DNA of 63,658 nt, filler included, from Reticulomyxa filosa (GCA_000512085.1; 18 parts of 18 records of this genome joined end to end with filler, not necessarily neighbours in it), one strand, 5' to 3'. Shown: positions 25,280 to 56,275, counted from the first letter of the whole stretch. The notes: generated by a model from the letters alone, not told the origin. Translations and numbers: made by a program.

Positions 25280-25690
25280 TCTTGTTTTATAGATCAAATT
25301 ACTTGTCATTGAATCAAAAGAACCAATTGAATATAATAATTATTGATAAATTATCCAGAGTCATCAAATAATGGAATATATTCCTTTTAATTTTGAAAAA
25401 AAGTATAGATATTTGTAATGAACATTTTTTATTCACTTCAATTGCAAACAAGTATTGTAAAATAAAACTTATTCCAACTGAAATGTTTTTTTCAAATTAA
25501 AAATAAATTGAAAAAATATGATAGAATAATGAAAAATATGTATTGAATAATTTAGATAATGAACAAAATGTATCAAATAAAGATTATAGTTATCTATGTT
25601 AAATTAGATTATGTATGTCAAAATCATAAATCCATCCCATATTGAATAATTCAATGAATCTCTTTTTCTTTTCATTTCTTTAATCATAAA
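25280..25690 (-). pseudogene. Heavily degenerate WD40-family 5' remnant
   Basis: Minus strand gives ..FNMGWIYDFD.. and LFDTFCSLSKLFNT, matching GWIKDFD and MFDTFRSSKLINT of the gene at 55906-56275. Confidence 0.55.
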
Positions 25691-26302
25691 TTACAACAAA
25701 TACAATCAAAATCTGAAAACTTGAAAAAAAGTTTACAATTTCTAAATATATTGAATTTGTTTTTCATTGTTTTTAATTTTTTTTGTTTAGTTCGTTTAAT
25801 GTTGTTGTCTTTACTGATGAAATGGAAAATATTTTTTATAAAGATATTTAAAATCAATGTTTAAATAAGTTATAATAATATACTCACACTTCAACTAGGA
25901 TGCATGGATACAAATTTGTGTTATCCATTTTATCGATACACAGCAAATAATCACTTTTCATCCAATGGATATTCATTTGGAAAAGGAAAAAAAAAAATTA
26001 ATAACATTAATCTGTTTTATGGATTTGACAAAGGTATCATTAGTTTCGTTTTTAACATAAAAATTTTTTTTAATAGTAATATTAACATAAAGGATTAAAT
26101 ATTTTTAATTTTGATGATCTAAAACAACTAAACATAGAATAGGATCTCCTTAAATTTATGAATCTGGTTTTGAATAAGAATTTGTGTTCTGACTAAGAAA
26201 CTNNNNNNNNNNNNNNNNNNNNNNNNNNNNNNNNNNNNNNNNNNNNTTAATTAATTAANNNNNNNNNNNNNNNNNNNNNNNNNNNNNNNNNNNNNNNNNN
26301 NN

Positions 26303-27477
26303 TGGTCGATATTCGTTGAAACTACGATTATTCCTTGTTGTTTATTGTTAATCATTTCATTCATTATTTCGTGAGCTTTTTTATTTGCTTTAATCCACAA
26401 ATGATTTTGATCAATTTCAATATTTGCATTTGATAAATGGTTTCTATTGTAAAGGAAAACATGTCGATCACTAGTTGTAATGCATTGAATATTTTGTTCA
26501 GACAATGCTTTTTGTTTAACCATTTTTGAAACTAACATTAAGTTATCATTGAATAATTTTAATGATGTAATATTTTGTGACATAACATTACAAAAGCATT
26601 CAGTAAAATAACTTCCTTCAGAATCAAATCTTAATTTTTCAAGGATTGTTGAAGATATTATAAAAGTATCAGATGCATAATTATGCCATTGTTCATTTTT
26701 TACTATTTTTCTTTGTTGGGATTGTTTATTTCCTCGACACGCATTTTTAATAAATATTTTTGGTTTATTTAAAAATACATCTGTATCATTTGCAAATAAT
26801 TCTTGCACTTTTTTAAAAAGTTTATATTTGTCATTGTCCGATGTTATTAATGTATCTCCTTCTTCTGCTGTATTGCCATGGCCACACCATACAAATATTA
26901 ATGAATCATAATTATTGTCATTAATCAAATTAGAATAATGCTTATTTAAAAAAATATTTAATTCATTCAATGTTAATGATTCAGTTTCAGGTTTATTTGG
27001 ATCATAAGTACAATACACTTTATATCCATATTTTCCTTCAAATAAATTTCGAAACATCATTAGATCTACTTTCACTCCAGGCAAATAATCTAAACTGTTA
27101 TATCTTGCAGCTCCAGTTAACAACACTAATGGATTCATAATTTTGTGATATTCATCTTCACTTTCTTTTTTTTCATTCTCTGTTTTATTAATCAACTGTT
27201 ACTTTGATTTGAATTTTTTAAATAAATAAACAAAACTGTGAATGAAATGAATAAAAAAGAAAACAGATCGCGCTCTAAATGCAATTTCTAATTGTTGATC
27301 ATTGGTAATTTCTTGTCCGTTATTATCAATAATTTTAAAATGAGATGTAGGGTCTCTTGTTTTATTGTTTGTTTTGAGCAACTCCAATATTCTTTCTTCC
27401 AAACTTTTTAAGTTTATTGAAGCAAGTGTCACCTCATGCATTTTCTTTTCAAGACAAAGAAAAGTCTTGTAAGACAT
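26303..27477 (-). CDS. Caspase-like (peptidase C14) protein with N-terminal PB1-like domain, 3'-truncated
   Basis: Catalytic His in DSLIFVWCGHG and catalytic Cys in KPKIFIKNACRG (cf. caspase KPK.F..QACRG); GSYFTECFCNVM small-subunit-like motif. Confidence 0.88.
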
Positions 27478-38338: not shown

Positions 38339-39599
38339 GAGCAGCTTCCTTTTAGACGTCACAGTTGTTCACCTTATAAAAGACAAAAAAATGAGCGCAG
38401 CCCTTCGCCATCAGTAGATGTATTTGAAGTACTTCCATCTTTACCTGAACCAATGAAATGCTGCCAATGTGTGCAATTTTATGATGAGATATTAATCTGT
38501 GGAAGTAACAAAAATGACAAATGCTATTCATATCACGTTGTATCCCAAACATATAAACCGATATGCAAGTACCCCGATGATGTGTCATTGTTGATCGGAC
38601 ATAATGTCGTTGCTTATAAAAGTAGCTCAAATAAGGAAATGATATTGCTATCCTTTGGTGGGCTGTTTAAACATACACTGATGATGAGATATAGAAGCGT
38701 TTGGGATGAAACAAATATAACTCCAAATCAATGGATGACTCTAAAAAATAAAGTGATAATTGGAGAATCAGTAACGGATGAAGAGGAAGATGAATACAAT
38801 TTGGAAGGTTGTCGAGGGATAATAAGTGGAATAAATCAAAATCTGTTGTTTGTGGTACACCCTCCAAACCGAATACTTGTTATTGAATTGGATTTCTTTG
38901 GTTATGCCACTACTATTGTGCACGATAGTATGCCTACGGATAGCACATGCATTGAATACCCTTGCTTTGTGCCATTGACAAAAAATGGCAAGCCATTGAC
39001 TAATCAATTTTTATGTGTTTGCAAAGATAAAAGTATTTTGATCTGCTATAACGAATATCTCCGGACATTTTGCTATGAGTTTTTGTCTGTTCCTTCTTTC
39101 ATTCAATATCATTTCGGCTATGCATTTGTGACGGTCAATGATCGTGTGATTCTATTTGGAGGGTACACCGAAAACGAAAACGAAGTCACTTTCATTCACA
39201 TTTATACAATATCCGAAAATCAATGGATACTGTGTGACTATAATTTGCCTCCAAGCATTTCCATGGCTTCTGCAATCTGGTGCAATGTCGATAACAGCAT
39301 TCATATCATCGGAGGGCCTTTGTTAAATGATATCAGAATGCTGTCAGCCCATCTCAAAATTGATGCAAGAGAACTGATAGGAGTTGAGAAAGGAAAAAAC
39401 AAAGCAAGAAAATAATAATAGGAATAGCAAAGCGAAATAAAATACGAAACAACATTTTTATTTGTTTTATGTTGTTTTTTTGTAGTGGAAAGAAACGGAG
39501 GCTAATTCAATTGTCAATTATTGGGTCCAAGTTAGTGAATTAACATGGCGAGGATGGATCAAAGAATTTAATCGGATCATTTTCAATTTTTTGAAATAA
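38339..39599 (+). CDS. Kelch-repeat beta-propeller protein with terminal 'GWI' module exon
   Basis: FEVLPSLPEP..EILICG, LLSFGG, VILFGG..IHIYTISENQW, IHIIGG. Intron 39383-39485, then last exon WKETEANSIVNYW..GWIKEFNRIIFNFLK*. The start exon lies upstream and is uncertain. Confidence 0.85.
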
Positions 39600-39681
39600 T
39601 GTGAATAATTTTAAAAAATTATTTTATGCATTTTTTTTTTTTTTGTGTCTTTGTATGTATGCTCTTATAATAAAAAAAAAA

Positions 39682-41032
39682 TTAAATTGATGAAGGGAAA
39701 AAAGATTTTATTTTTTCAATGCTCTGTTCGATGTCCAACACTCCAACATCTTTGAACTCAATGCATTGACTATGCAAACCTTTGAGTTCCTTCTTCAAAA
39801 AAAAGAAACAATCAATGTATTTGTATCTTTCATTCAAATCTTTGGTTCCCTTTGGAATGTATAAAACACACAATTTATTTGGCACTCCATCACATTTCAA
39901 AATGGCCACACGGCAAGCCTTCCTCTTTTCCTTATCGTTACTTTCAAACAATCCGTTGAATTCACGGATGAGTCTTTCAATTGGAAACTCTCTAATTTCT
40001 GGTGGCAATGGTTTGGATGCTTTCTGATTCACATTTTCTGGTTTTTTTGAAACGCTTTTTGGTTTTATGCCACTGTCCGAATTGTTGATTAAAATTACGC
40101 CTTTGGAGGCTCTTAACACTGTTGTGTCTTTGATTTGAAAAGTGATATAATACGTATTTGACTCCTTGCACAATTCTTGGTAGGCATCCTTGACACCTTG
40201 GTGAATAGTCAACGGAATACGTTGCCGCGTTTTTTTGGGCATATTTTTGTCTGTCTCTACTTTGTTTGTAGTGTTTTCAACACTTTCATTTGCACTCTTT
40301 TTCTCCTCTTCTTTGGCTCTGTTCAATTATGTGTATACGTACTTTGTTTTTTCTTATGTGTATTATATACATATATACAAATATATGTGTATATAGTTCT
40401 CTTTGATTATTGCATTAAAACTGATGATTAGATGGAACTGGGAGATTGTCGGAGGCTGTGTTTGGCTCTGTAACATTGCTTTGCTGGCTTTGATTGATGG
40501 CTTGCTCTGTTGTTATTGACGTCGCTTTATCTTGTGGAGCCACTTTGGGAGTGTCGTTTTGTTGACTCAGTTGTTGTTTGATGAGCCCCACTGTTTTATT
40601 TATATCCAGTTTACTCTTTCCGATCAACTCGATTGTAGCGTCAATTTTAATTTTGCCCAGTTTTTTAATTACTGCCATGACCGCATATTTCATCGTGGAT
40701 TCAATCTTGTCAATCTCATCCTTTCTCATATATTTGATATCCTTTTTGTTTGGAACGAAGGTTATACATACTATCTTTTTAGCAACTCTCACCAAAGCCA
40801 ATCGAGGCTCTGGTGAGTAGTTCAAGTCGTGGAGTAGTGCTTGGATGTGCGTGTCGTCTGCAGATTCCGTTTTTGTTGGATCATCGTACATGCCCGCTTT
40901 GCAGTTCAAAAGCCGGTTGCCTGACACTTTCAAAATTAAATATCCATATTCTTTTCGCCTTGCGAGATCCTTCATAGAATTGAAAGCAAGCTCGTGGACT
41001 TCAATATCTTTTTCTTCACTTTCGGCCATCAT
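39682..41032 (-). CDS. Protein with two divergent ADF-H (cofilin-like) domains
   Basis: Both halves follow the ADF-H pattern (EV/TI..A/Y.EL..YLILKV/YITFQI..R[LV]A[LI]..[IT]FVP/LYIP..KY..[IL]KK.L). The in-frame intron 40421-40319 joins the two ORFs (CA|A = Gln). Confidence 0.7.
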
Positions 41033-41437
41033 TCAAAATTTTTTTTAAAAACTTGTCTTTCCCCTAATTTTAGCTAGCTATGAAGAAACAAAAATAGACC
41101 TTTGGACACTCAAATTCTCAACAACCCAAACACGAAATAGTGAAATTATTATCAAATGCAAAGTCTTGATTGAAATAACATAAAAGTCGCACAACAAAAT
41201 CCTAAAGTTGCGGCTTGGCTCCCTTTTCGTCGAGCCTTTCCCTCGCTTGCGAATCAAAGTAAATTGTTGTTTGTGCACCAGATACGAAAGTGATATACAA
41301 AAGAGGAAGGAAAGGTAAGAAGGAAAAAAAAAAGAAAAGAAATACACAAATCACGTAAAAAAAAGATCAACATCACAAAAAAAAAAAATAGAGACGCCAA
41401 GAGGAAAAAAAAAAAAAAAGAAAAAAGATATCAAGTT

Positions 41438-44400
41438 TTATGATTGTGAGATGATTTCTTGATGATACTCCATGATCCAACCACCCAACACAGTGGTGAA
41501 TTCTGATTTTTGAATCGACTCTTTGTCAACCATTTTGCACTCTACAATCCAATCCCTCATTGGTTTCAGTTCATCTTTCATTGCTTTTTTATCAATTTTC
41601 GGAGCCTCTTGTTTGTTTGTCTATTTATTTATTTATTTGTTTGTTTGTTTGTTTGTTTTTTAAATGAAAAGACAATAAATTGGAAGAGAGAATGAGATAT
41701 ATCACATAACTTTGGCAACAAAGGCTTGATAAAGCACACAAGTGAAGACAAGCAACGAGAGGAGCTCTTCTTTTTCAATTTCGCCACTGTTGTCCGCATC
41801 CAAGTGTGCCCAAATTTTGTTGACTGTGGCATCATTCATACGCTTTTGAACAAAGGATGCAAATTCATCAACCTTGAAGGTAAGCGGAGAACGAAGAATA
41901 CTGCCACTCTTTTTCGACTCCTCCAAACTCTTTCGTGGCGTTTCGGCGTCTGTGTCGTAGGAAGGCTGTGGACTTTGTTCCGTGCCGTAGCTGGTGGACA
42001 AAGGAATGGTCTTTGACGTGTCTGACGTATGATCATTTTCTTCGTCTTCCGTCATCCCGTCATGAGTCACCTCCGTCGTTGTGGCCCGATTTCGGACGAC
42101 TGTGGAATATTCGGTGTCACTATCGTTGGCATGGGCTTTCGTGGAGTGCAATCCGGACAAACGCAAACAGGTCGCCAAGAAACTGCCACTCAAATCGTCA
42201 GTCAGCCATTGCAACAAGGTTTTGTTGTTCGTTTGGTCGGGGCTTTTGTCAAACTCTTGCTGGATCTCACCCATATCTATCTCACTTCGGAACACTAGCA
42301 CACGTGTCAACATATCCGCTTTATAGCCCACGCCTTTCATCGAGTCTCTTAACTATGTATGTTTTATCAAACCCAAATCAACAAATGGACGAATGAATGA
42401 ATAAATAAATAAATAAATAAATATTTATTTATTTATTCATTCATTCATTCATTTGACACATCCGTTTAAAGGAATCTCTTCACACAACAACAATCTTTGC
42501 ACAAAACTTTAATTGCAAAGAATGCAAAGCGATTTGTGGCCATTTGGAAAATGGTATCAGCAGCAATGAATGAGTTGTTTCCAAGAACTTTATGTGCCAC
42601 TGTCATTATCCTGTAGTGCAACATATGATATAATGATAGTAGCATATACGTATATAAATACATATACATGTACATATATATATAATATATACATATATAT
42701 GTTTATTATTTATTTATTTATTTATTTACTATCATAAAAAAAACGAAACGTAAGTTCGGAAATTTTAGCATAAAATTCGGCAGTCTTTTTGATATGAGTC
42801 AAGCTCTTGCAAGCAAAGAAATGTTCCCACAGACTGGCGTCGATCTTTCCAGTTTCTCCTTTGTCTTTCAGGTCTTTGGCGCTTTTTCAGCCTGAACGGC
42901 GTCAGCACGCAGTGTTTCCGGCCGTTGTGCCTTAAGAATTTCCATGAGCATCGAGTTCAAGTTTTTCTTGCTCTTTGTGGCCTTGTTGATGTCCCCGACC
43001 ATGTCGCCTTTGTACAGAACATTGTATGCCTGAATGGTATCCTTCAGTTGTTTGTTGGTGCACGTGCAAATGGCTTCGATGAGCACGGGCAGGTGCTTCA
43101 GGCCTTCGTGAATAATCTGAGCGCGATATTGTGCGATGGGCGTGAGTAGCACCAATGTAATGGCAGTGGTTTTGCCGCGCTTGCCCAAGATTTGAGCAAT
43201 GACATCTTCCAATGAGGTTTTTTTGGAGTTGGAAGGGGCACTTTGGAACTTGAGCTTCAATTCTTGTCTCTGCTCGTTGTTGATCGACGTCATGACCTCA
43301 ATCAGCTCTTTTTTGAACTTTTTGATGTTGGGTTTCTTCTCCGCAGCCAGCTCGGCCAGCAGGCGTGCACTGACGTCAATGTCCACATCATCATTGAACC
43401 GAACAGTAGGCGAAGTGACACAATAGTCATCCCAGCTTTCCACATCTTTGGTTTCTTCTGTCGTTGCTGTTACTATTGCTGCTGCTGTGCTGTTGCTGCT
43501 GCTGGTGTTGTTGGTGATTTTGCATTATTTCTATCATTGCTATTACTGTTCTGTTACTGTCTACTTTCGCTTCGATATCATGCACACGGTGAGTCGCACT
43601 ATTTCCACCCAAGTTGCCAACGTCAAACCCACAAAGACCCATCAGCATCTTGCGATATGCGCCCGACGTGTCGTCTCTCAGCCACTGTAACAGCGTCTTG
43701 CCTTCACCGAATTTCATGTTAAATATCGCAATGATCTCTTGCAAGTCGATCTCACTTCGGCCCACAATGCATCGCACCAACAACTCGTCATCTGTTCCAA
43801 GTCCTTTCATTGACTTTTTCAACTGAAAAAAAAAAAAAAAAAGTATATACGTGTATATGTATATAATCAATTGAATTGTTGTTATTTGTTATTATTATTA
43901 TTTTTTTTTTTTTGTTCAAAAGAATATCGTGTAATACATGTAATGCCCAATATGCATGACGTTGCTGAGCTATGTCGATCATGATTTGGAAGGCGGTGCC
44001 CACTCGGCCACCGATTTTCTTTTCCATGACACTTCTGGCATTGACCTTGGAGAACTTGTTAAACTCGATCAGGACTTGGTCGAGATGTCCCCAGCTTCGA
44101 TGAGTGAAAATATCGTAAATGGCTTCCATGCCCAGCGTTTTGCCTCCTTCCAGTGCGTTTTTCAGCGCTTCATAGTCTTTCGCCACACGTCGCTCGTCAA
44201 CGATGCGAGGGTCTGTTTCTTCGCGTTTCAGCGTCAACGCGTGGTCCACGAGCAAGTGGTAGTCATCCTCGGACTTTTTCACTTTGGCCACCAGTACGGA
44301 ATTCAGATCGCCATCATACATTTTTTGGTACGCCTGTTTTATTCGCTCAATTTCTGTGTTGGTCCTACAAGGAGGACATACATAACGAGAGGAGGGGGTG

Positions 44401-44511
44401 GGGGGGGGGGGGGGGAGGAGGGTTCCAACAACCCACAAAACACAACATCTTTCTATTTGTTAATTTGTGCACATATATCGTCAAACTAACTTAGTGAAAA
44501 TGATTTCACCG
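41438..44511 (-). CDS. Double-core annexin (at least 7 repeats visible) with C-terminal EF-hand region, 5'-truncated
   Basis: MKGLGTDDELLVRCIVGRSEIDL..DDTSG, MKGVGYK..RSEIDM..DDLSG, EIIFTKTNTEIERIKQAY, LIEAICTCTNKQL; EF loop DADNSGEIEKEE; 1-nt frameshift at ~42881. Confidence 0.9.
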
Positions 44512-44685
44512 NNNNNNNNNNNNNNNNNNNNNNNNNNNNNNNNNNNNNNNNNNNNTTAATTAATTAANNNNNNNNNNNNNNNNNNNNNNNNNNNNNNNNN
44601 NNNNNNNNNNNATATATGTATATATACATATATATATGTGTAAATATATGTGCATATGTATTTGTATGTGTATAATTGTTTTCAG

Positions 44686-46534
44686 AGGGCAAATGAAAAT
44701 GACAATATGATAGAAGGGATGACTACGGTGATGTATCCTCCGAAGAATGGTCCTCGCGCTTTGGCGAAGCGACTCGACATAGACGAGAGCCATCTACCTG
44801 ACATTGACGTGAACGACGAGCTCACTGACTCGTTGATTGAAGCATGTCGTCAAAACTATGGCGAAGAAATGACCACATTGAATATCATGGGATATATGGA
44901 CGAGCTCCGCAATATCCGCAGTCTGCTGCGTCACAAAGGCAATGTCGATCTCGTCGTGCAAGAGTTCTCCGTAGAAACCAACGATGGTGTCTGCATCGCG
45001 GACAGCATTTACATTGGAGATCACGTGACGAGAGGGCCGGACTGGAAGTGGGGGAATCAAGACGGACAAGCGGGTCTCGTCGGTACTGTCCGCGCTTTGC
45101 GACAGTGGCATCCCAAAGATCCCGACACTTGCACCACCGAAGTCATCGTGTTCTGGGACATTGGCGTCTATGGCAATTACCGCTTTGGATATCGCGGCGC
45201 TTATGATGTCAAGGTCGTCGAGCGATGCGCCAAATATCAATTTCCGAACAGCGATGGAATATTGCTCGAATATTTGGCCGTTGGGGACATTGTCAAACGA
45301 GCCAAGCCTAATTGGCGTTGGGATAAGTTTGGTACTTGTTTTTTTTTCACTCGCTTGTCTTTGTAGTGGAAAACAAAGACTATATATTGTTTAGATATAA
45401 AAAGGAGTCCATTTATGTGTTTTTTTTTTTGTTCTGAATTCATCTCAAAATGCGAACATCAAAAAGACAAGATGGTGGAACCACGCTAAGCTATGGAACC
45501 GTCATTGAAGTGATGCATCTCCTGCTCCACTCGCCAACGGGATTCGAGTGGGCGTCCTTTGGGACAAGGACAAGGAAGAATGGCAAAAAATTACGACGCA
45601 GTACAAAGAAAAAAAGCGACAAAGAGCAATGAATGAAGACAATGAAAATAGTGAAGATATCTCGGTGGATTTTTCCAATGAGAAATGTGATTTGGACAAG
45701 AAAGAGGATAGCAATGATCACACTCGAATCGAACAAGAATTCATTGCCAAGTGCCAGACCCTACCCTTTGATCCTCACTGCACCAATTTCAAATCTAACA
45801 AACGCGATGTCAGTCCTTGGGAACCCACTGAAAATCTTAGCGTTTGGGAGGAAATGGACTTTGAAGATGTCTTGGCACAACCTCTCCCCCGTTATCGATG
45901 GGGACTTGAAGACTCGTACGATTTGACTGTTATCAAACCTGTATCTTCGAATGAATGCGAGTATCTCATGGTAGATGATCGTATCAAAAAGGGACCTGAC
46001 TTTAAGTTCATTAAAAATTTGACAACGAACATCTTGTGAGTATGATATCAATATATATATTGTGTGTGTGTGTTATTTTTTTTTTTGAATAGACAACCAC
46101 CAAGTGGTGACTATTCAGATCAAATGGCGGTGGTTTTAAGAGTAGAACAATGGGACGTAAGTCGTGTGGAACCACGCTATATTCGAGGTGATAAAGTTTT
46201 CACACAATGGAGTAGTCGTCATGGATTTCGATTTCATCACAATGGAAACATGGATGTCATATTTGTAAGACGTGGACAACTATTCCGACAACAATCTGTC
46301 CGGATTCGAGTTGGGGATCGTGTGCAAAGATCTATGTTTTGGGATGAACGCCTTTATGGACAAGAAGATGGAGGGGATTCTGCCCAAGGAACTGTTGCCG
46401 TTTTACAATTTGTTTTAGAGACATCGGGAATTTTGGCTAAAGTACGGTGGCATAAGAATAGCCATGTAAACTTATATTCATGGGGCTTTAGCAATATTTA
46501 TGACATTGCCAAAGTTGATCCAGGATCTTCATAA
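44686..46534 (+). CDS. UBA domain + four MIB/HERC2 repeats, 5'-truncated
   Basis: UBA: LNIMGYMDELRNIRSLLRHKGNVDLVV. MIB/HERC2: GDHVTRGPDWKWGNQDG..GTV..VFWD.G..NYRFG..GAYDV plus three further copies; 1-nt frameshift at ~45511. Confidence 0.88.
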
Positions 46535-49019
46535 CTTTGCATTGTCTTTTTATAACTTAGATATTCTTCTTTGGTTGAGTAATCGATCAGGGTAATTCTT
46601 TTTTAACCAAAAATTTTCCTTATCTTTTTTTGGCCACGTATCAATTAAAGCATCACCAATAAAATTTATTAAATAATGCGCTTTCAATGTCAATTTGATC
46701 AAATATTATATCTGTGTATCACACACTGTTTTACCATATGATCAAGAACAATTAATATATTTTTTTCAAAATATTACATCAAAACCGAATACTAATTTAA
46801 CTTCAATTAAATTATTTTCGAATCCGGATACACAAAAGTGTCAAATGAAGGACATTCTGTAAACTTATCACTTTTTTCTAGTGATATCATTGTCATATGA
46901 TTTGCTGAGAAAATATGAAATTTTTTCCAAAATTCAGAACGAATTAGTTTCGTTTCATCCATGCACTCATTCAAAAAATCATAAGAACTAAAATCTTTGC
47001 CATTGCCCANNNNNNNNNNNNNNNNNNNNNNNNNNNNNNNNNNNNNNNNNNNNTTAATTAATTAANNNNNNNNNNNNNNNNNNNNNNNNNNNNNNNNNNN
47101 NNNNNNNNNCGCTCATGATGCTATCTTCGCTATTTTGGTATGTCGCACGAATGTGGCACCATTTCGAGTCCGTCACAAGGCGTGACCCAAACTACTTTGA
47201 AATTGCAAATCTTCCGCACTATATAATAGATTACATATGGATAAACTTGGTCTGATGCCTTTGTATGAACATAAGTATGTCAAATATCCAAGTTTCCTTG
47301 CTGCTTTGCCATAGATGTAATTAATACGCTTGGAATAAGTCATGTGAGAATCAAAGATACTTTACATGATCGCATTCTTTCAGATTTGAGTGCTGCAATG
47401 TCAATTGAATCTTTGGAATTTTATCTTATTTTGATGTCTGAATGTGATTCACTGTAAGTAGCATCTTCCATTTATTCGACAAAATGGATACTTTATCCAA
47501 ACAACAGGTGGTAAATCGATTGGCGATTCATTATTATCATTGCATAATCATATTAATGATAATATGCAGTAGAAACAAAAGACCAACATTTTACAAAGGG
47601 GTTTGATGATTGTTCCAAATCTATCCGAAAATAAGGAAGAGGAGGAACTGAACGATGAAAATATATGGAAGGAAAGCAAAAAAACAAGAAAAGATTATTT
47701 CTGCAAGACAAGTCCAACATGGAAAAGAATTGGTGTCGCAAAAATAAATTCTGAAATTCATTGGAGTAAAAGAGAAGGCATTTGTGAAGAAATTGAAAGC
47801 ACAAACGTTTTCGCAATGATGGAAAACGTTGTTTGTGCATTTTCAAAGTCAAGTTTTTTTTTTAGATGGGTTGCAGTGGGGGCGTCAAGTGTCGGACTAC
47901 TCTATCGCTTCATCCTCAAATTACACTTCTTTTTGCACTCTCTACATGCACAAACTCAGGTCTTTCAAGTTAAGAGAGCACCTCGTTCTAAGAAATAGAA
48001 CACAGTACTCAAAAGAAAACACAAAAACACCAGAAAGATACACAAATCTTACAACGACCAAAGGTCCATTCAAAAATAGTTAAAGAAAAACAATAAAGTT
48101 AATCTGTTGAGATTNNNNNNNNNNNNNNNNNNNNNNNNNNNNNNNNNNNNNNNNNNNNTTAATTAATTAANNNNNNNNNNNNNNNNNNNNNNNNNNNNNN
48201 NNNNNNNNNNNNNNAAAAAGGTAAATATTTTGATGTGTAAACGATGCAGCTTGCAATAACAAATTATTACTTGTAGGGAGGATCTACTGATTCATTACTT
48301 TATTGTTTACTTTTACTTTTCTGACATAAAGTTAATGCGAAAGCATCAGAGTAAAGTTTTTTGACACTATATAAGACAGGGAAGCGATGTTCCAAAGGGA
48401 TCTTGAAACTCCCTCTCCGAAACTTGACTTGTTTCCCTCTCAAACTTGTTTTTTTGCTTCTACTTTTTAAAAATTTACACTTTTACACATTTAGACAATC
48501 ACATGAGGGACCTACAAACACAGCGTGAGTACGTGACGAACGCTTGTCAAGAATTTTATGAAACAGTACTAGTAACAAAATCAAAAATGTGTTGCTCGAA
48601 ACGATAGCAATCTTTACTTTCACAAAAACGTCCTTTTCGTTTGTTCTTATAGTGCCGCAATTCCGAGTTTTTTAAATTTCGTTTTTCTAGATGAATTGTT
48701 TTTATTACATTGATAACGAAATTACCATTGAAATACGCAAGGATTTACAATTGCTTGCAAAAAAACAAAGAAAGATTGATCCGGTTCAACTATTAAGATA
48801 TGTCACATCGACTTATTCGTCTTCTGACTAAAGTAAAATTTTAATGGATTTCTATATAGAGCACATATTCTATACTCTTTTCAAATATTTTTAAAAATCA
48901 TTAAAACGAAAAGTCTTAAAATGAGATTAAGCAAAAAAACAGGAAGATACAAAAATTCAGTCTATTTAATCATTGAATTAAGTTATCATCTTTATAATAA
49001 GCAAAGAAAAAAGTAGAAA

Positions 49020-50192
49020 ATGGATACTATTATCAAAGAAAAAGAAACTATAATACCACACTTGGTAGGCCTATCTCATTTACAAATCTTTGTTATTCAA
49101 CACTGAGCTACTGTTGAATTGATAAATCAACAAACAGTTGGAGAAAGATATGAAAATAATAATTCAAAATTGGCTCCGAATTTTAAATGTGAAATTAGGG
49201 TGGATAAATGATTTTGACAGACTTGTTGTTAAATATGTTAAGAATTTGTTGTATTTCTTGCAAATTAGTTTGATAATGTTTTATTACCGTCTTGTTTCAT
49301 AAAATAGGCTAAATATTTTGAATTAGCAAGAGTTTTAAAAGGACATGGCCAAGAAATAAATAGCGTACAATTTTCACCAGACGGTCGGATGATTGTTTCG
49401 TCTTCTGATGATGAAACAATCAGATTATGGGATGTGGCCTCAGGTGAGCTCATCCAAACTTTTCTCGGTCACTCGGATTGGGTTAATTATGCAGAATTTT
49501 CACCAGATGGAAATACTATTGTGTCTTGCTCACACGATAAAACAATTCGATTATGGGATGTGAAATCAGGAAAAGAGTTAATGAAATTTGAAGAGAATAG
49601 CTTTGTAATATGGTATATAAATATTTCTTCAGATGGCAACATGATTGTATCAGGTTCAGGTGATGGAACAGTACGAATATATAATATCAGTTCTGGACAA
49701 GATACCAGAGATATAATACATTGTCCACGTCCTGTACGGGGCGTACAATTTTCATCCAATGGTGAAGTAATTTTATCATCGTCTGTTGATGCTACAATTA
49801 CTCTGTGCAATGCAAAATCAGGTGAAATATTGCAAAAATTTGAAGGACATACGAAAACGGTGAAAGGCGCAAAATTTTCTCCAAATAATAAATTTATTGT
49901 GTCAGGTTCATTTGACAAAACAATTCGAATATGGGATATTGAATCAGGAAAATCTTTGAAAAAATTAGAAGGACATGAAAGTGATGTGAATGATGTAAAA
50001 TATTTTCCAGATGGTCAAACTATTGTGTCTTGCTCTGATGATAAAACAATTTGTTTATGGGATGTAAAATCAGGACAAAAAATACAGGAATTAAAAGGTC
50101 ATTCTAATCGTATACTAGGGATAGATATTTCACCAGATGGTAGTACAATTGTATCAGGTTCTAAGGATCTTACAATTTGCATTTGGAGATAA
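49020..50192 (+). CDS. WD40-repeat protein (7 repeats) with N-terminal 'GWI' module
   Basis: Exons 49020-49064, 49138-49236 and 49308-50192; repeated GH..V..V.FSPDG..IVS.S.D.TIRLWD. Confidence 0.95.
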
Positions 50193-51837
50193 AAGTAAAA
50201 TCTATTTAAAATAATTTATTGTTATATTTTATACATGCACATTAAGTTTGAAATATGATGTTTATCTTTCATTATTATTCCTTTCATTGACTATCACATA
50301 CACACAAATTGTACTATATTGAATTTGTGGTTTGTCGAAGAAATATCAGGTGAATGACAACACATGTACATTCAATTATACTTTCGTGCATTTAAATAAA
50401 TACCATGTACCAAAAATGAGCACATCCATAATACATTTAAAATTTTTTTTGTTCAAAAGTAATTTACTTATTGCGAGAGGAGTTTTGCCATTAATAATTT
50501 AAAAGTAATATTTGACATATAAAATTTAAATGTTATGTAAAACTCTTTTTGTTCCGTTGTGTAATGATTAATATTTGCAAAGTTTACTATTTAGAATATC
50601 ATTAAATGTAATTTTTTAAAAAAGTTAAACCACTTAAAAATTTAGCGTTATTGATCTTTTTATTTTATTTTGACAAAAATTAAATCTGTCAATGCTATTT
50701 CTTTATACACAAAGTATAACAATTTCAAGTATAATAGAAGACAAGGTTTATTATTTCGACATTTTAAATTATCAAATTGATCTTCACATTATCTGACAAA
50801 GGATGTTATCTTTGTAATTAAATTGTAATAAACATGAAAATGCAAACAAGTTTATTGGGTAGGAAAAAAATATCTACAAATGCATTTGAAGAAAAACAAT
50901 GGAAAATAAACTACATTTCCAAAAATGCCCCTTTTATTTATTGCTTTTTCGTCAAAAAAAAATAGGTGAAAATAAAGTTTATATTTACGAACAGAATTTT
51001 TGCGAGATGATAGAATGTTTAGATTTTTTAATTTGTCGATGCAAAATTTATTATTTTAAAATACTTGTAATTTTAAAAAAATAAAGGAAATAAGTCAGTT
51101 GACCATTGTAATTTTAAAGACAAAATTCAAGATGTAAATAGACACTTGGAAAATAATCGCTGTTTGCCAATGGTTACATCTTATTTTAGAACATTTAGAT
51201 GTAACCATTGATGTTTAAAACGCGAAATCAATGAACATATAATAAGTTGATTATCCAAATTAATAAGGTATTATTAATTTCATATTTGAATAAAAGGCTA
51301 TCTTATTCAAACTTTTTAAAATTTGTTTCAATAACAAGTTAAACATTCAAAGATAAAAATGAGTTTGGTTAAAATAAATTTGCAAAAAAATTTGAACTAT
51401 GAATTTGCTAAACAATCAAATGAAATAGAATATAAACAGGAGAATAATAATTAATTCATTAAATTTGAAAAAAACAAAAATTTCTGTTTTAAATCACATT
51501 CACAAACATTGGCTCTCAATGGTATAAATTGTCCAGATTGATCATACCTGCTGCGTGTTTTATAACATTTTTTATAATGCTTCAAGTCTCACAAAAATTA
51601 AACTTTGAGTTTTTTTTAAAAAGCAAATTCAAACATTATTATATCTTATCTTTATTTATCTCTTTTTCTCTTGTTCTATTTTAATATCATTTATATTCGT
51701 CATTAAAATATGCAATCTTTTCATTTTTATATTGCACAGCTGAACTTTTGTCAAAATGTTTTCGCTTTTTCGTTCATTTGAAATCGTATGTAACTGTCCA
51801 CAGCTTGAACTATTGAACGTCAGTCGAAAAAATTTTT

Positions 51838-53420
51838 ATGGAAAACCTCCCCGTGGCAAATTTCGTTATTAAAATGACAGAAAGCATAAAAGAGAATGAC
51901 GAGGAAAAAGAGCAAATATTTAGATTTTTGGAAAATGCGGTCAAAATAGATGGTGAAGAAGCCTCAACGCTCGCCTCTTATTTGTGTCGAGAGGAAAAAA
52001 CAACACAAGGAGAAGATATTGCAATGTTGGAGCCACAACAATGGAAAAAAGTATTTACACGCGTACAATTGGCTCTTATTTCAAAGAAGAAGCTATTGAA
52101 AATAGTGAATAGAATGTGTGAGAGTGAGAATGAGAAATCATTGAATATTGACGAAATAGTAAATATATGATCATCCATACGGCAAATGTATATGTCAATA
52201 TATATTTTTGTGTTGACAACAATGAGAAAAGAGAACTAGTTGTATTCTATTGATACAGACGACAAGAGTACACACAAATTTTGCACATCAATGACAATAT
52301 GGCGAATATTATTTTGGAAGTATGTGTAAAAAAAAAAAAAAATAATGTATCCTTTTTTCAAATGTATGAATCAACAACAAACATAATTAAAAAAAAAGAA
52401 TAAATTGGTGAGATTCAACGTAAATGATGAAAGATGGAAACATTTTGATTTAAAGAGCGGAGATGAAATGCTTTGCGAATATTCACCTGAATCAACTTCA
52501 AATGTACCAGGTTATGGGTTGAATGTGAACAACCTGTCTTAATTACTTGGCCTTGTCAAAGTGGGTCACTCAACAAAAAGAATGTATGAGTTTATGTAAG
52601 ATGTTGATTTTTAAGCTGATGAATCACAAATAATCGACGAAAATGCCTCCAAACAAAAATATTTTGATTTCATTCAAGATTTACTCATCACAATCAATGA
52701 TGTGGAAAGAATTAAGAATAATGCAGATACACGTAAGATATATATTTCAATTTTGCCAAAGTTGTATTCCAAAATGCAAATTTTGAAAGAAATGGTATTA
52801 CATGGATATTTGAGTAATAATCTTGCTTTGTACTCGGATGAAGCAACACGATTGAATTGTTGTTTGGAATTAATGCTTTTGAAGAAAGAAGTGAATGAGA
52901 ATAGCAAAGACTGGAAAAAGTTATGCAATAAAAATAATACCTCTGATCTCGGCTGCGTTGTAAAATTTCAAAGGTGAAAGTGGATATTATCAACATTATT
53001 TCCAACATGGTTTGTGAGGATATTGATCTGTCACAACTTGAGGAAAATCAAAGTTTATTTAATTCACTGGAAAAAATAAATTATTGTTGTTATAAACAGT
53101 ATGAGCGTGCTTTGTACATGTGGTTTTTGAAACAACTTTATATGTGGAAAGGGATTCATTGGATTGATATCATATTCACGCAACCCAATGTTGGCATGAA
53201 ATATCTTTTTGGAAAATTAAAGACAAATAATATTATTCTGTTTGTGAAGTTATTTAAAAAAAATGAAAATATATTACTGTATCTGAAAAGACACTGATGT
53301 TTATCAAAAAGTAGAAATATCTTATGATCATTGAAACTAACAGACTCTGTTGTGTTAACTATGCACATGTTGAAATTTGATAGATAGGTAGCCTCCTTAT
53401 TCAAAGCATTTTCAACAAGT
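51838..53420 (+). pseudogene. Disrupted multi-exon gene of unknown family
   Basis: Protein-like segments (MTESIKEND.., VPGYGLNVNNLS*LLG.., MERIKNNAD..) are broken by in-frame stops and frameshifts. Confidence 0.55.
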
Positions 53421-54796
53421 TTATGTTATTTATTTGACAGGCATCAAAGATTTGTTAATACAAATAAAAAACCCGCAATTTGAGTGCTTGGTACGCTGAG
53501 CCTGGCAAATGCAACGTTTTTCATTGCGTCACCTTGTTTGCTTTGTTTGTTCGTCTGTTTTTAAGTGACAACTTGAATGGGACTTAGTTACAACAAAATG
53601 CCTTTCTTGCAACTGTGTTAGGATTAATAGCTTGTCTTCTTTTTTTTAACTTTGTGCATGCACAATTGTTATTTTTTCTCTCACTTTGCACAGATTATTT
53701 AAATTGTGAGTTGCTGTCTTTCATTGAACATACTCTTATTTTAGAAGTTTGAATAAAAAACTGCTTTCATTAAGTTCTCTTTTTATTTTTAAAAAATAAC
53801 CTTTTTTCGGATTTAACCTGCCGACTGTAAAGCGGAAACTAGGAAATTCAGTTCAACTATGCAAGCCCCATTTTATTGCATGTCCAATTTATTAACTTTG
53901 AAGTTTGAATGCTTATCTTCGTTGATACTAATTTGCAACCGAAAGAACATGACCAAAGATTCGTCGTTTTATTCTGTATATCTTATCTCAGAGTATCCGC
54001 TCAAGTCATGAATCTTATTGCAATGTTCGCCTTGCCTGGTCAGTGTGTACAACGCTGGTCAAATCCGCATGTGTTCACAAGATGGAAAGAAGCACTTAAT
54101 TTTTTAATTTAAAAAGAAAAGTAGACTAAAGCATCATTGATACTTTTTGCAATTGTTTAAATTAAAGATGTGGAGGATGTAATAAATAAAAAGGATGGTA
54201 AGGATGTAAACAATTATTTGTGTGCGTGTGGAAAGAAAAGTTGTACCAATGCATAATGTACAATGTATGTTAAGAACAAACAAACAAAAAAAAGAGGCAG
54301 TTGAAGCAATCGAGAGCGAGATACGTGAAGAAAAAGTATAAGCGAATATAGCGATCTGATCCTTTCTGCAAACATGCATGCACGCAAAAAAAAAAAAAAA
54401 AAAAAGAAAAATTCCAGGAAAAAGTGTGTGAGTAATATTGATAGTGATATTTAACGGCAAATGCAAGAAAAGCGTGTCAATGTTGTCGCAATCATGTTTT
54501 CATTTAATTGTTCAATGTATGGTTCCATTACGTTTATCGGCACAAATGAAATTTGTCCCAAGCAATGTCTCAGCGGATACACACACACACACACACGAAA
54601 AGTGCAATGGATTAAAGTTTTGGGTATGTATGTTTATCTGTTAGTGCACCTCCTTTTCTTATTCTTCTTTTCTGCTTGAAACATTCATAGACCCANNNNN
54701 NNNNNNNNNNNNNNNNNNNNNNNNNNNNNNNNNNNNNNNTTAATTAATTAANNNNNNNNNNNNNNNNNNNNNNNNNNNNNNNNNNNNNNNNNNNNT

Positions 54797-55592
54797 CCAA
54801 GAATGGAATCAATTACAAGGATACATTGCCAACAATTGTCTGGAACTTGCTGTCAAATACAAAATGACAGATTACGAAAGAATTGTGGTACTGGCCAACG
54901 ATGCCTTTATCACCTTGTATGGGCCTCGTATACTCGTTTACAAAAATGCGTTGTCGAGACCTGATATTATTGAATTGAACAAGCAGACAAAGCGCATGTG
55001 CTTAAGTTTGGACTGTCATTATATTGTCTCGGAAGAAACAGAAGTAAATCTCGCAACGTCCAAAAAAAAAATAACCAAACATACTGACAAATTGCCGATC
55101 GTTGGAAAAATTGGTGTCAATGACGTGAGTTATGTGTATCAACTTGCTGATGACTCCAATAATGGGTCTGCTAACATATCACAGACTGGTCACTTTTTAC
55201 ATGGCTATCCTCCATCCTTTTTCAATGCCATTGCAAACAATAAATCCCTTATTCATCAACTATTCATAATAGCCTTGAAGCCACAATCATTTGTTAATTC
55301 AAATCCTCCCTTTTTCCGATCAAGCCTCGGATACCTCTCCTTCTGTTTCTTCGTCATCAAACCACGCCTTTCTAGTGACGTCCCTGTATTTGTAGCTGCT
55401 CAAATGTCGGAAGAGTCCATCCATTGGGTCGAATCGAAACAACTTATTGGCTCAAACATTGAAGCTTCTGCAAAGGTCAAATTAGAAATGGAACTTCAAT
55501 CCTTGGAAGAAATATTATATGGCATTGACGAAACAACAAAAGATATGAACATGCAATACATTTCACAATTGCATAAACTTTGTGAGATTTGA
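54797..55592 (+). CDS. Hypothetical protein fragment (no family recognised)
   Basis: Open frame of ~265 codons from the contig edge with protein-like composition; coding-like sequence continues past the stop, so it may be a pseudogene. Confidence 0.5.
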
Positions 55593-55905
55593 TATATTCA
55601 AGGAATCTACAAATCATCACAAGAAAGTATTACATGTTCGTATCTTTAGTAGGAGTATATACAAGTGAAACAAGCAACGTCCAACTATTTATATCAACTG
55701 TAAATAGTGAACAATGCTTTATATCAATTGCCAATATGTCAGTATCGTTTTTTTTAAAGTATTGAGATTTAATGTTAAGTAATGTGTGTTATATACTCTT
55801 TATTTNNNNNNNNNNNNNNNNNNNNNNNNNNNNNNNNNNNNNNNNNNNNTTAATTAATTAANNNNNNNNNNNNNNNNNNNNNNNNNNNNNNNNNNNNNNN
55901 NNNNN

Positions 55906-56275
55906 CATCAAATGTTGAATAATCAATACTATACACCCAATCAGTATGTCCAGTGAATGTATTGATTAATTTGGATGAACGAAATGTGTCAAACATGAAT
56001 ACAGTAGATGCCTATGTTAAATAAACATTTGAATATTTTTGTTAGTATTTAAAAAAAGAAAAAACAAATGAGCTGACATAATTGACAACGAGTTTGTCAA
56101 AATCTTTGATCCATCCTAATTGAACGTTTAATGTTCGAATCCAATGATGAATAATGATTTGGATCTCTTCTTCTTCTTTTGACTTTTTTAATTACATGTA
56201 ATAACGCTAAATAAAAGAAATAATAAAACGTAAAGACAACTTAGACTTAACTTTGATTGATAAGTTTAAGTTCAT
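55906..56275 (-). CDS. WD40-repeat gene, 5' exons only
   Basis: Exon 56182-56078 SKEEEEIQIIIHHWIRTLNVQLGWIKDFDKLVVNY; next exon from 56011 ASTVFMFDTFRSSKLINTFTGHTDWVYSIDYSTFD. Confidence 0.85.

What the first reader, a model, noticed from the sequence alone, without database searches (positions are those of the whole stretch)
39486..56182. A mobile ~33-aa 'GWI box' exon caps both WD40 (N-terminal) and Kelch (C-terminal) propellers: candidate novel adaptor module
Seen: the same motif occurs in unrelated beta-propeller genes on different contigs. 49138-49236(+) LEKDMKIIIQNWLRILNVKLGWINDFDRLVVKY and 56182-56078(-) SKEEEEIQIIIHHWIRTLNVQLGWIKDFDKLVVNY both precede WD40 repeats. 39486-39599(+) WKETEANSIVNYWVQVSELTWRGWIKEFNRIIFNFLK* follows Kelch repeats. 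A decayed copy (MGWIYDFD) lies at ~25615-25640(-). Each intact copy is its own exon with phase-0 junctions, the signature of a shuffled module. Established: F-box (usually N-terminal) and SOCS/BC-box (C-terminal) motifs are short helical tags that link WD40, Kelch and other substrate-binding repeats to cullin E3 ligases. Inference: this two-helix motif, whose tail 'xDFxxhhxxY' parallels F-box 'PxEhxxxIxxY', may be a lineage-specific cullin-adaptor box underlying a large family of substrate receptors.
Basis: partly seen in the sequence, partly recalled or inferred. Interest (0 to 1): 0.85.

Follow-up and report, generated by a model that had tools for sequence, protein, structure and literature searches.

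The report
Shared docking tag on foraminiferan propellers
A 33-amino-acid tag with no known family match is shared by about 190 clusters of WD40 and Kelch propeller proteins, all named ones from one foraminiferan (Reticulomyxa filosa), and likely docks them onto one common partner, possibly a ubiquitin-ligase adaptor, though that partner is untested.

Summary
The window looks like Reticulomyxa filosa. An exhaustive search found 194 clusters; 19 of 19 looked up are R. filosa. Architectures among 158 boxes: box-WD40 95, Kelch-box-WD40 11, Kelch-box without WD40 24, no neighbour seen 28. The box is more conserved than the adjacent WD40 (51% vs 33%), has no Pfam or PDB match, and is predicted as helix-loop-helix outside both propellers. 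It fails the BC-box, Cul5-box and F-box patterns (0 of 161 each; Cul2-box 3 of 161), so it is not one of these. Best guess (0.3): a DCAF-like helix-loop-helix that docks on DDB1. Rivals: a non-E3 hub partner, a LisH-like dimer, a non-canonical Skp1/Elongin C binder. No binding was shown and DDB1 could not be tested. The 11 Kelch-box-WD40 models suggest the box reached Kelch genes by fusion with a box-WD40 cassette, not as a free exon.

The parts
49020..49064 (+). Gene A exon 1 (ATG, 15 codons)
   Evidence: GT donor at 49065
49138..49236 (+). Box copy A, internal phase 0-0 exon, 33 aa
49308..50192 (+). Gene A exon 3: seven-repeat WD40 propeller (class II) to stop
   Evidence: PF00400, 7 stretches
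56252..56275 (-). Gene B exon 1 (ATG, 8 codons)
56078..56182 (-). Box copy B, internal phase 0-0 exon, 35 aa
55906..56011 (-). Gene B exon 3 start: linker and partial first WD40 repeat (class I), cut by contig gap
   Evidence: PF00400 E 0.004
38339..39382 (+). Divergent Kelch propeller exon (33-37% identical to 11 named R. filosa Kelch proteins)
39383..39485 (+). Inferred phase-0 GT-AG intron joining Kelch to box; the database model of this gene reads into it and omits the box
   Evidence: no RNA support
39486..39599 (+). Box copy C, terminal exon to stop, most divergent copy (one extra loop residue)
25612..25720 (-). Decayed box relic with upstream intron remnant; stop, deletion and frame change

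Best explanation
The box is a conserved 33-residue module, predicted to be helix-loop-helix, that likely docks a large, variable family of WD40 and Kelch propellers onto one shared partner, most likely DDB1 in the way DCAF substrate receptors do. Shown: the module, its exon layout in the window, its spread and its conservation. Predicted: two helices broken at the invariant Gly-Trp, outside both propellers and poorly ordered alone. Inferred: the propeller picks the substrate, the box plugs into the adaptor, and the family would be a lineage-specific set of CRL4-type receptors. Inferred history: the box is the N-terminal cap of a box-WD40 cassette; Kelch genes gained it by fusion, and some then lost the WD40 but kept the box.
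For: Box identity exceeds WD40 identity: class I vs II 51% vs 33%, within class II 51% vs 41%, within class I 64% vs 53%; between copies A and B third codon positions match 16 of 33 against 27 and 30 of 33. W13, G22, W23, I24, F27, Y34 are 94-99% and R15 88% conserved in 161 boxes, and helix 1 has conserved residues on two faces, more than a 33-residue hairpin can bury alone (inference). AlphaFold2 of a Kelch-box-WD40 model gives helices 432-447 and 454-464 at pLDDT about 50 between propellers at about 90. Size and place match the DCAF1 helix-loop-helix (aa 1050-1079, N-terminal to the WD40; PMC6821201 passages); such motifs share very low sequence similarity (PMC13061254 passages). The first WD40 Gly-His lies 10-13 residues after the box in 10 of 14 class II models and 20-25 in 15 of 15 class I models. 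WDxR occurs in 12 of 16 long class I models. The box is kept at the C-terminus of 14 of 24 Kelch models without WD40.
Against: No sequence match to any DCAF in Pfam or PDB. WDxR is rare in class II (2 of 22; 0 of 7 Kelch-box-WD40; none in gene A) and is said not to contact DDB1 directly. Against recalled H-box sequences the fit is partial in either register (recalled, no call). Kelch-domain DCAFs are not a class I know (recalled). Known receptor expansions mostly use Skp1, BTB or Elongin C adaptors (recalled). The box alone folds as one long helix, so the hairpin rests on one low-confidence model and on the conserved Gly. R. filosa DDB1 and CUL4 were not checked.
Confidence: 0.3

Rival explanations
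1. The box docks the propellers on a shared partner that is not a cullin adaptor (a lineage-specific hub, for example in signalling, innate-immune-like recognition or reticulopodial transport).
For: The same conservation data. The box also appears after a NACHT-like domain (P0125, E 0.005), a TRAF zinc finger (P0126) and Arg/Asn-rich tails. All 19 named hits come from one species.
Against: The pattern of a fixed short box plus variable propeller at either end is the usual anatomy of cullin receptors (inference). The NACHT and TRAF cases are single partial gene models and may be mis-joined neighbours.
Confidence: 0.28
2. The box is a diverged LisH-like motif that dimerises the propellers through a four-helix bundle, giving homo- and hetero-pairs of Kelch and WD40 modules.
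For: LisH is a motif of about 34 residues that mediates dimerisation and occurs in LIS1, TBL1X and muskelin (PMC12648486 passages). Length, two helices and a Gly-aromatic turn fit the recalled LisH pattern if four loop residues are inserted (recalled, no call).
Against: No LisH family hit for the 3 window copies at E 1, for 150 members at E 0.001 or for 41 members at E 10 (filters drop most hits above 0.1). The shared pattern is a generic amphipathic one. LisH usually sits well away from the propeller (recalled).
Confidence: 0.2
3. The box is a non-canonical Skp1- or Elongin C-binding motif: helix 2 acts like F-box helix 1, or the whole like a BC-box plus Cul2-box.
For: Helix 2 spacing (acidic-aromatic, then hydrophobic, then Tyr) parallels the recalled F-box helix 1. 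BC-box plus Cul2-box motifs are used by Kelch proteins such as KLHDC2 and have similar length.
Against: BC-box consensus 0 of 161, Cul5-box 0 of 161, Cul2-box 3 of 161, F-box Leu-Pro pattern 0 of 161; only 10 of 161 boxes hold any Pro (consensus, F-box pattern recalled). No room for F-box helices 2 and 3 before the WD40 or the stop.
Confidence: 0.15
4. The box is only a structural cap or a passenger copied along in a recent gene expansion.
For: Many models are fragments and the window holds a decayed copy; no RNA cover was found.
Against: It is more conserved than the propeller beside it and shows third-position excess; it sits beside two unrelated propellers and is not packed on either in the model.
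Confidence: 0.07

Closest known systems
DCAF helix-loop-helix / H-box (DCAF1 1050-1079, DDB2, CSA, DCAF12; CRL4-DDB1)
   Same: About 30 residues, helix-loop-helix, directly N-terminal to a WD40 propeller; low sequence similarity among known members.
   Different: No sequence match; also C-terminal to Kelch and between two propellers; strongly conserved across the family; DDB1 binding untested.
LisH motif (LIS1, TBL1X, muskelin)
   Same: About 34 residues, two helices, found in WD40 and Kelch proteins.
   Different: No Pfam hit; longer loop; abuts the propeller; dimer not shown.
BC-box plus Cul2-box / SOCS box (KLHDC2, VHL, WSB, ASB)
   Same: Short helical tag at either end of repeat domains, including C-terminal to Kelch.
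   Different: Lacks the small residue at Leu+4 and the Cul-box Pro.
F-box (FBXW7, beta-TrCP) and C-terminal F-box-like PRANC (recalled)
   Same: Helix 2 spacing resembles F-box helix 1; N-terminal to WD40.
   Different: No Leu-Pro, no helices 2-3, no Pfam hit.

Membership tests
DCAF helix-loop-helix | Helix-loop-helix of about 30 aa N-terminal to WD40 | tested here: inconclusive
   Position met; hairpin predicted at pLDDT about 50 but single helix when folded alone
DCAF helix-loop-helix | Inserts in the DDB1 BPA-BPC cleft | not testable with these tools
   No DDB1 sequence could be fetched
DCAF helix-loop-helix | WDxR motifs in the propeller (associated, not universal) | tested here: inconclusive
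   12 of 16 class I, 2 of 22 class II, 0 of 7 Kelch-box-WD40
F-box | Pfam F-box match or Leu-Pro-x-Glu start with three helices | tested here: not met
   No Pfam hit listed over the box; pattern 0 of 161
F-box | Binds Skp1 | not tested
   Only stand-in Skp1 from giant-virus contigs was at hand; the one job went elsewhere
BC-box (SOCS/VHL box) | (S,T,P)Lxxx(C,S,A)xxx-hydrophobic | tested here: not met
   0 of 161 (consensus from PMC4878042)
Cul2-box / Cul5-box | Proline-containing cullin box | tested here: not met
   Cul2 pattern 3 of 161, Cul5 0 of 161 (consensus)
LisH | Pfam LisH match | tested here: not met
LisH | Dimerises | tested here: inconclusive
   See Tried and rejected
Part of the propeller fold | Supplies a closing strand or packs on the blades | tested here: not met
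   Kelch strands end at 421, WD40 strands start after the box; box is helical and low confidence

The most novel reading that the evidence does not exclude
R. filosa has built several hundred substrate receptors on a new adaptor-binding box that belongs to none of the F-box, SOCS/VHL, BTB or known H-box classes, including two-headed Kelch-box-WD40 receptors that bring two different propellers to one ligase through a central box.
Probability: 0.25. Interest if true: 0.8.

Novelty: new variant of a known kind. Interest (0 to 1): 0.55.

Why it matters
Foraminifera have almost no characterised protein modules. A single conserved tag on a family of at least 194 clusters gives one testable handle (find the partner) for a large block of 'hypothetical' and 'WD-40 repeat' genes. 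If the partner is a cullin adaptor, this is an independent, large receptor expansion in Rhizaria with a new box and a two-propeller architecture. If it is not, it still names a lineage-specific hub. The profile also corrects gene models: 73 of 146 run into the intron after the box.

Tried and rejected
Homodimer prediction of copy B: no answer, score 0.02 against a mark of 0.32, alignment not used; no evidence either way. Box folded alone: one long helix, uninformative, so no fold search was run on it. Fold search of the Kelch-box-WD40 model: only propeller matches. PDB sequence searches with copy B and the 10-row profile: 0 hits at E 10; with the 69-row whole-protein profile: WD40 hits only among the 60 shown. 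ESM Atlas: no feature hit; nearest model a 55-member all-Foraminifera WD40 cluster at TM 0.52, under the tool's bar. Metagenome scan: 1 of 99 candidates confirmed, which reads as a bacterial glycosyltransferase-like gene (my reading), rejected as chance. RNA: no RNA holder listed; the one run laid nothing on the Kelch gene. DDB1: six pattern scans gave no DDB1 (the 7 loci are unrelated). Elongin C search: no R. filosa entry among the 120 of 575 listed. Kelch tree (quick method, 24 rows): fused and stop forms interleave (3 changes forced), no order of events. Box tree (122 of 161 rows, 33 columns): no branch at 95; it placed copy C with a divergent class II group, but BLOSUM ranking did not, so independent capture is unresolved. 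A recalled broader foraminiferan motif pattern matched nothing in the window or fetched proteins. Earlier findings: none returned. The genome paper was not held.

Full report
Setting. The window is a string of short contigs joined by N spacers (17 joins); no whole genome is held. Every named homologue of the genes in question is from Reticulomyxa filosa, so the window is most likely that foraminiferan (inference).

Observation. The three translations match the finding. Copies A and B are internal exons with GT-AG introns in phase 0 on both sides, each intron holding stops. A is followed by seven WD40 repeats; B by part of one repeat before a gap. Copy C is a terminal exon after an inferred 103-base phase-0 intron behind a divergent Kelch frame. 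The database model of that gene (P0005) reads into the intron and lacks the box, and no RNA covered the gene, so this join is inferred; 6 of 11 other Kelch homologues carry the box in their models. C is the weak one: 1.2 bits from a profile of A and B alone (20 shuffles at most -1.4), 24.1 bits from the 161-box profile, which includes it. The relic at 25.6 kb has both halves in different frames with the middle deleted.

Family. A 10-row profile read against 1.84 billion representatives gave 194 clusters at E 0.001 or better, 66 at 1e-10; 150 were listed. These are clusters at 50% identity, so the gene count is likely higher. I looked up 19 different ones of the 150, half chosen among the weaker hits; all 19 are R. 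filosa. The 44 unlisted hits and the other 131 were not named, so restriction to this species is likely but not shown. Among 158 non-window boxes in 157 proteins, profiles built from the family itself sorted them as box-WD40 95 (class I 60, class II 35; two with WD40 upstream too), Kelch-box-WD40 11 (all class II; in 5 a charged helical stretch lies between Kelch and box), Kelch-box with no WD40 24 (one, P0073, looks misassigned; 14 end within four residues of the box), and no partner seen 28, mostly short fragments. Single models put the box after a NACHT-like domain or a TRAF zinc finger; these may be mis-joined. After the final Tyr, 73 of 146 models have Val (background 5.8%), which is what read-through of a GT donor gives; in the Kelch-stop class it is Ser in 11 of 21 and Val in 1. 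So the 3' phase-0 intron is a family trait of the WD40-linked boxes and absent from the Kelch-stop class.

History. The 11 Kelch-box-WD40 models are the missing link. The simplest path is a box-WD40 cassette, fusion behind Kelch genes, then loss of the WD40 with the box kept. The trees do not prove it: fused and stop forms interleave in the Kelch tree, and in the box tree 19 Kelch-stop and 5 fused boxes group within class II at support 84. Free exon shuffling is not excluded. Gene models of this draft are poor and I could not read their DNA.

Constraint and shape. In 161 boxes W13, G22, W23, I24, F27 and Y34 are 94-99% conserved and R15 88%. The box is more conserved than the first 160 residues of the propeller beside it in every comparison, and A versus B differ mostly at third positions. 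AlphaFold2 on a Kelch-box-WD40 model (46 rows) builds both propellers well and leaves the box as two helices at pLDDT about 50; alone it gives one long helix. It is therefore not a propeller strand, and a conserved, hydrophobic, poorly ordered tag most likely folds on a partner (inference).

What it is not. No Pfam family covers the box in 3 window copies, 150 members (best 5 shown each) or 41 members at a loose cut-off; no PDB sequence matches. Published BC-box, Cul2-box and Cul5-box patterns (PMC4878042 and PMC13061254, passages seen) and a recalled F-box start match 0, 3, 0 and 0 of 161. It is not a member of those families, though it may work like them.

Mechanism. I commit to a DCAF-like helix-loop-helix docking on DDB1 (0.3). 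Its size and position match the DCAF1 motif (PMC6821201, passages seen), and that class tolerates very low sequence similarity, so the lack of a profile hit costs little. WDxR is common only in class I and is weak evidence. I could not fetch DDB1, so the key step is untested. A non-E3 hub (0.28), a LisH-like dimer (0.2; PMC12648486, passages seen), a non-canonical Skp1/Elongin C binder (0.15) and a passenger (0.07) remain. Taken together, a cullin-adaptor role has about 0.45.

Literature. Searches for Reticulomyxa with WD40 (7 papers), with Kelch (0), with F-box (2), with WD repeat expansion (0), foraminifera with WD40 and Kelch (1), and foraminifera with gene family expansion or ubiquitin ligase (20 of 365 listed) showed no description of this motif (listings only, plus passages of PMC12475580, where the species is only a table entry). 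The genome paper is not held; its text and supplements may mention the WD40 and Kelch expansions.

Verdict. A real, selected, unnamed module on a large lineage-restricted propeller family; function inferred. New variant of a known kind; interest 0.55.

Noticed in passing
window 26251-27198 (-): Open frame with a caspase-type peptidase domain (PF00656, E 2.3e-19) on the contig next to the relic.
   Followed up: partly
window 38339-39599 (+), protein P0005: The database model of the Kelch gene reads into the intron and omits the box exon; P0008 and P0010 appear to do the same.
   Followed up: partly
P0017, P0127, P0148, P0156, P0161: Kelch, then a charged helical stretch, then box and WD40: a longer two-propeller architecture.
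   Followed up: partly
P0144, P0154, P0155, P0160, P0162: Class II box-WD40 models with long Arg/Asn/Tyr-rich low-complexity N-termini and divergent boxes.
   Followed up: no
P0125 and P0126: Box after a NACHT-like domain and after a TRAF zinc finger, each in one partial model.
   Followed up: no
L018:36-536 (+): A giant-virus contig encodes an Elongin C homologue about 70% identical to animal Elongin C, with a short N-terminal repeat.
   Followed up: partly
L004, L010, L016: Intronless Skp1 homologues on viral-collection contigs.
   Followed up: partly
window 51817-53297 (+): Several open frames in an AT-rich stretch downstream of gene A; not identified.
   Followed up: no
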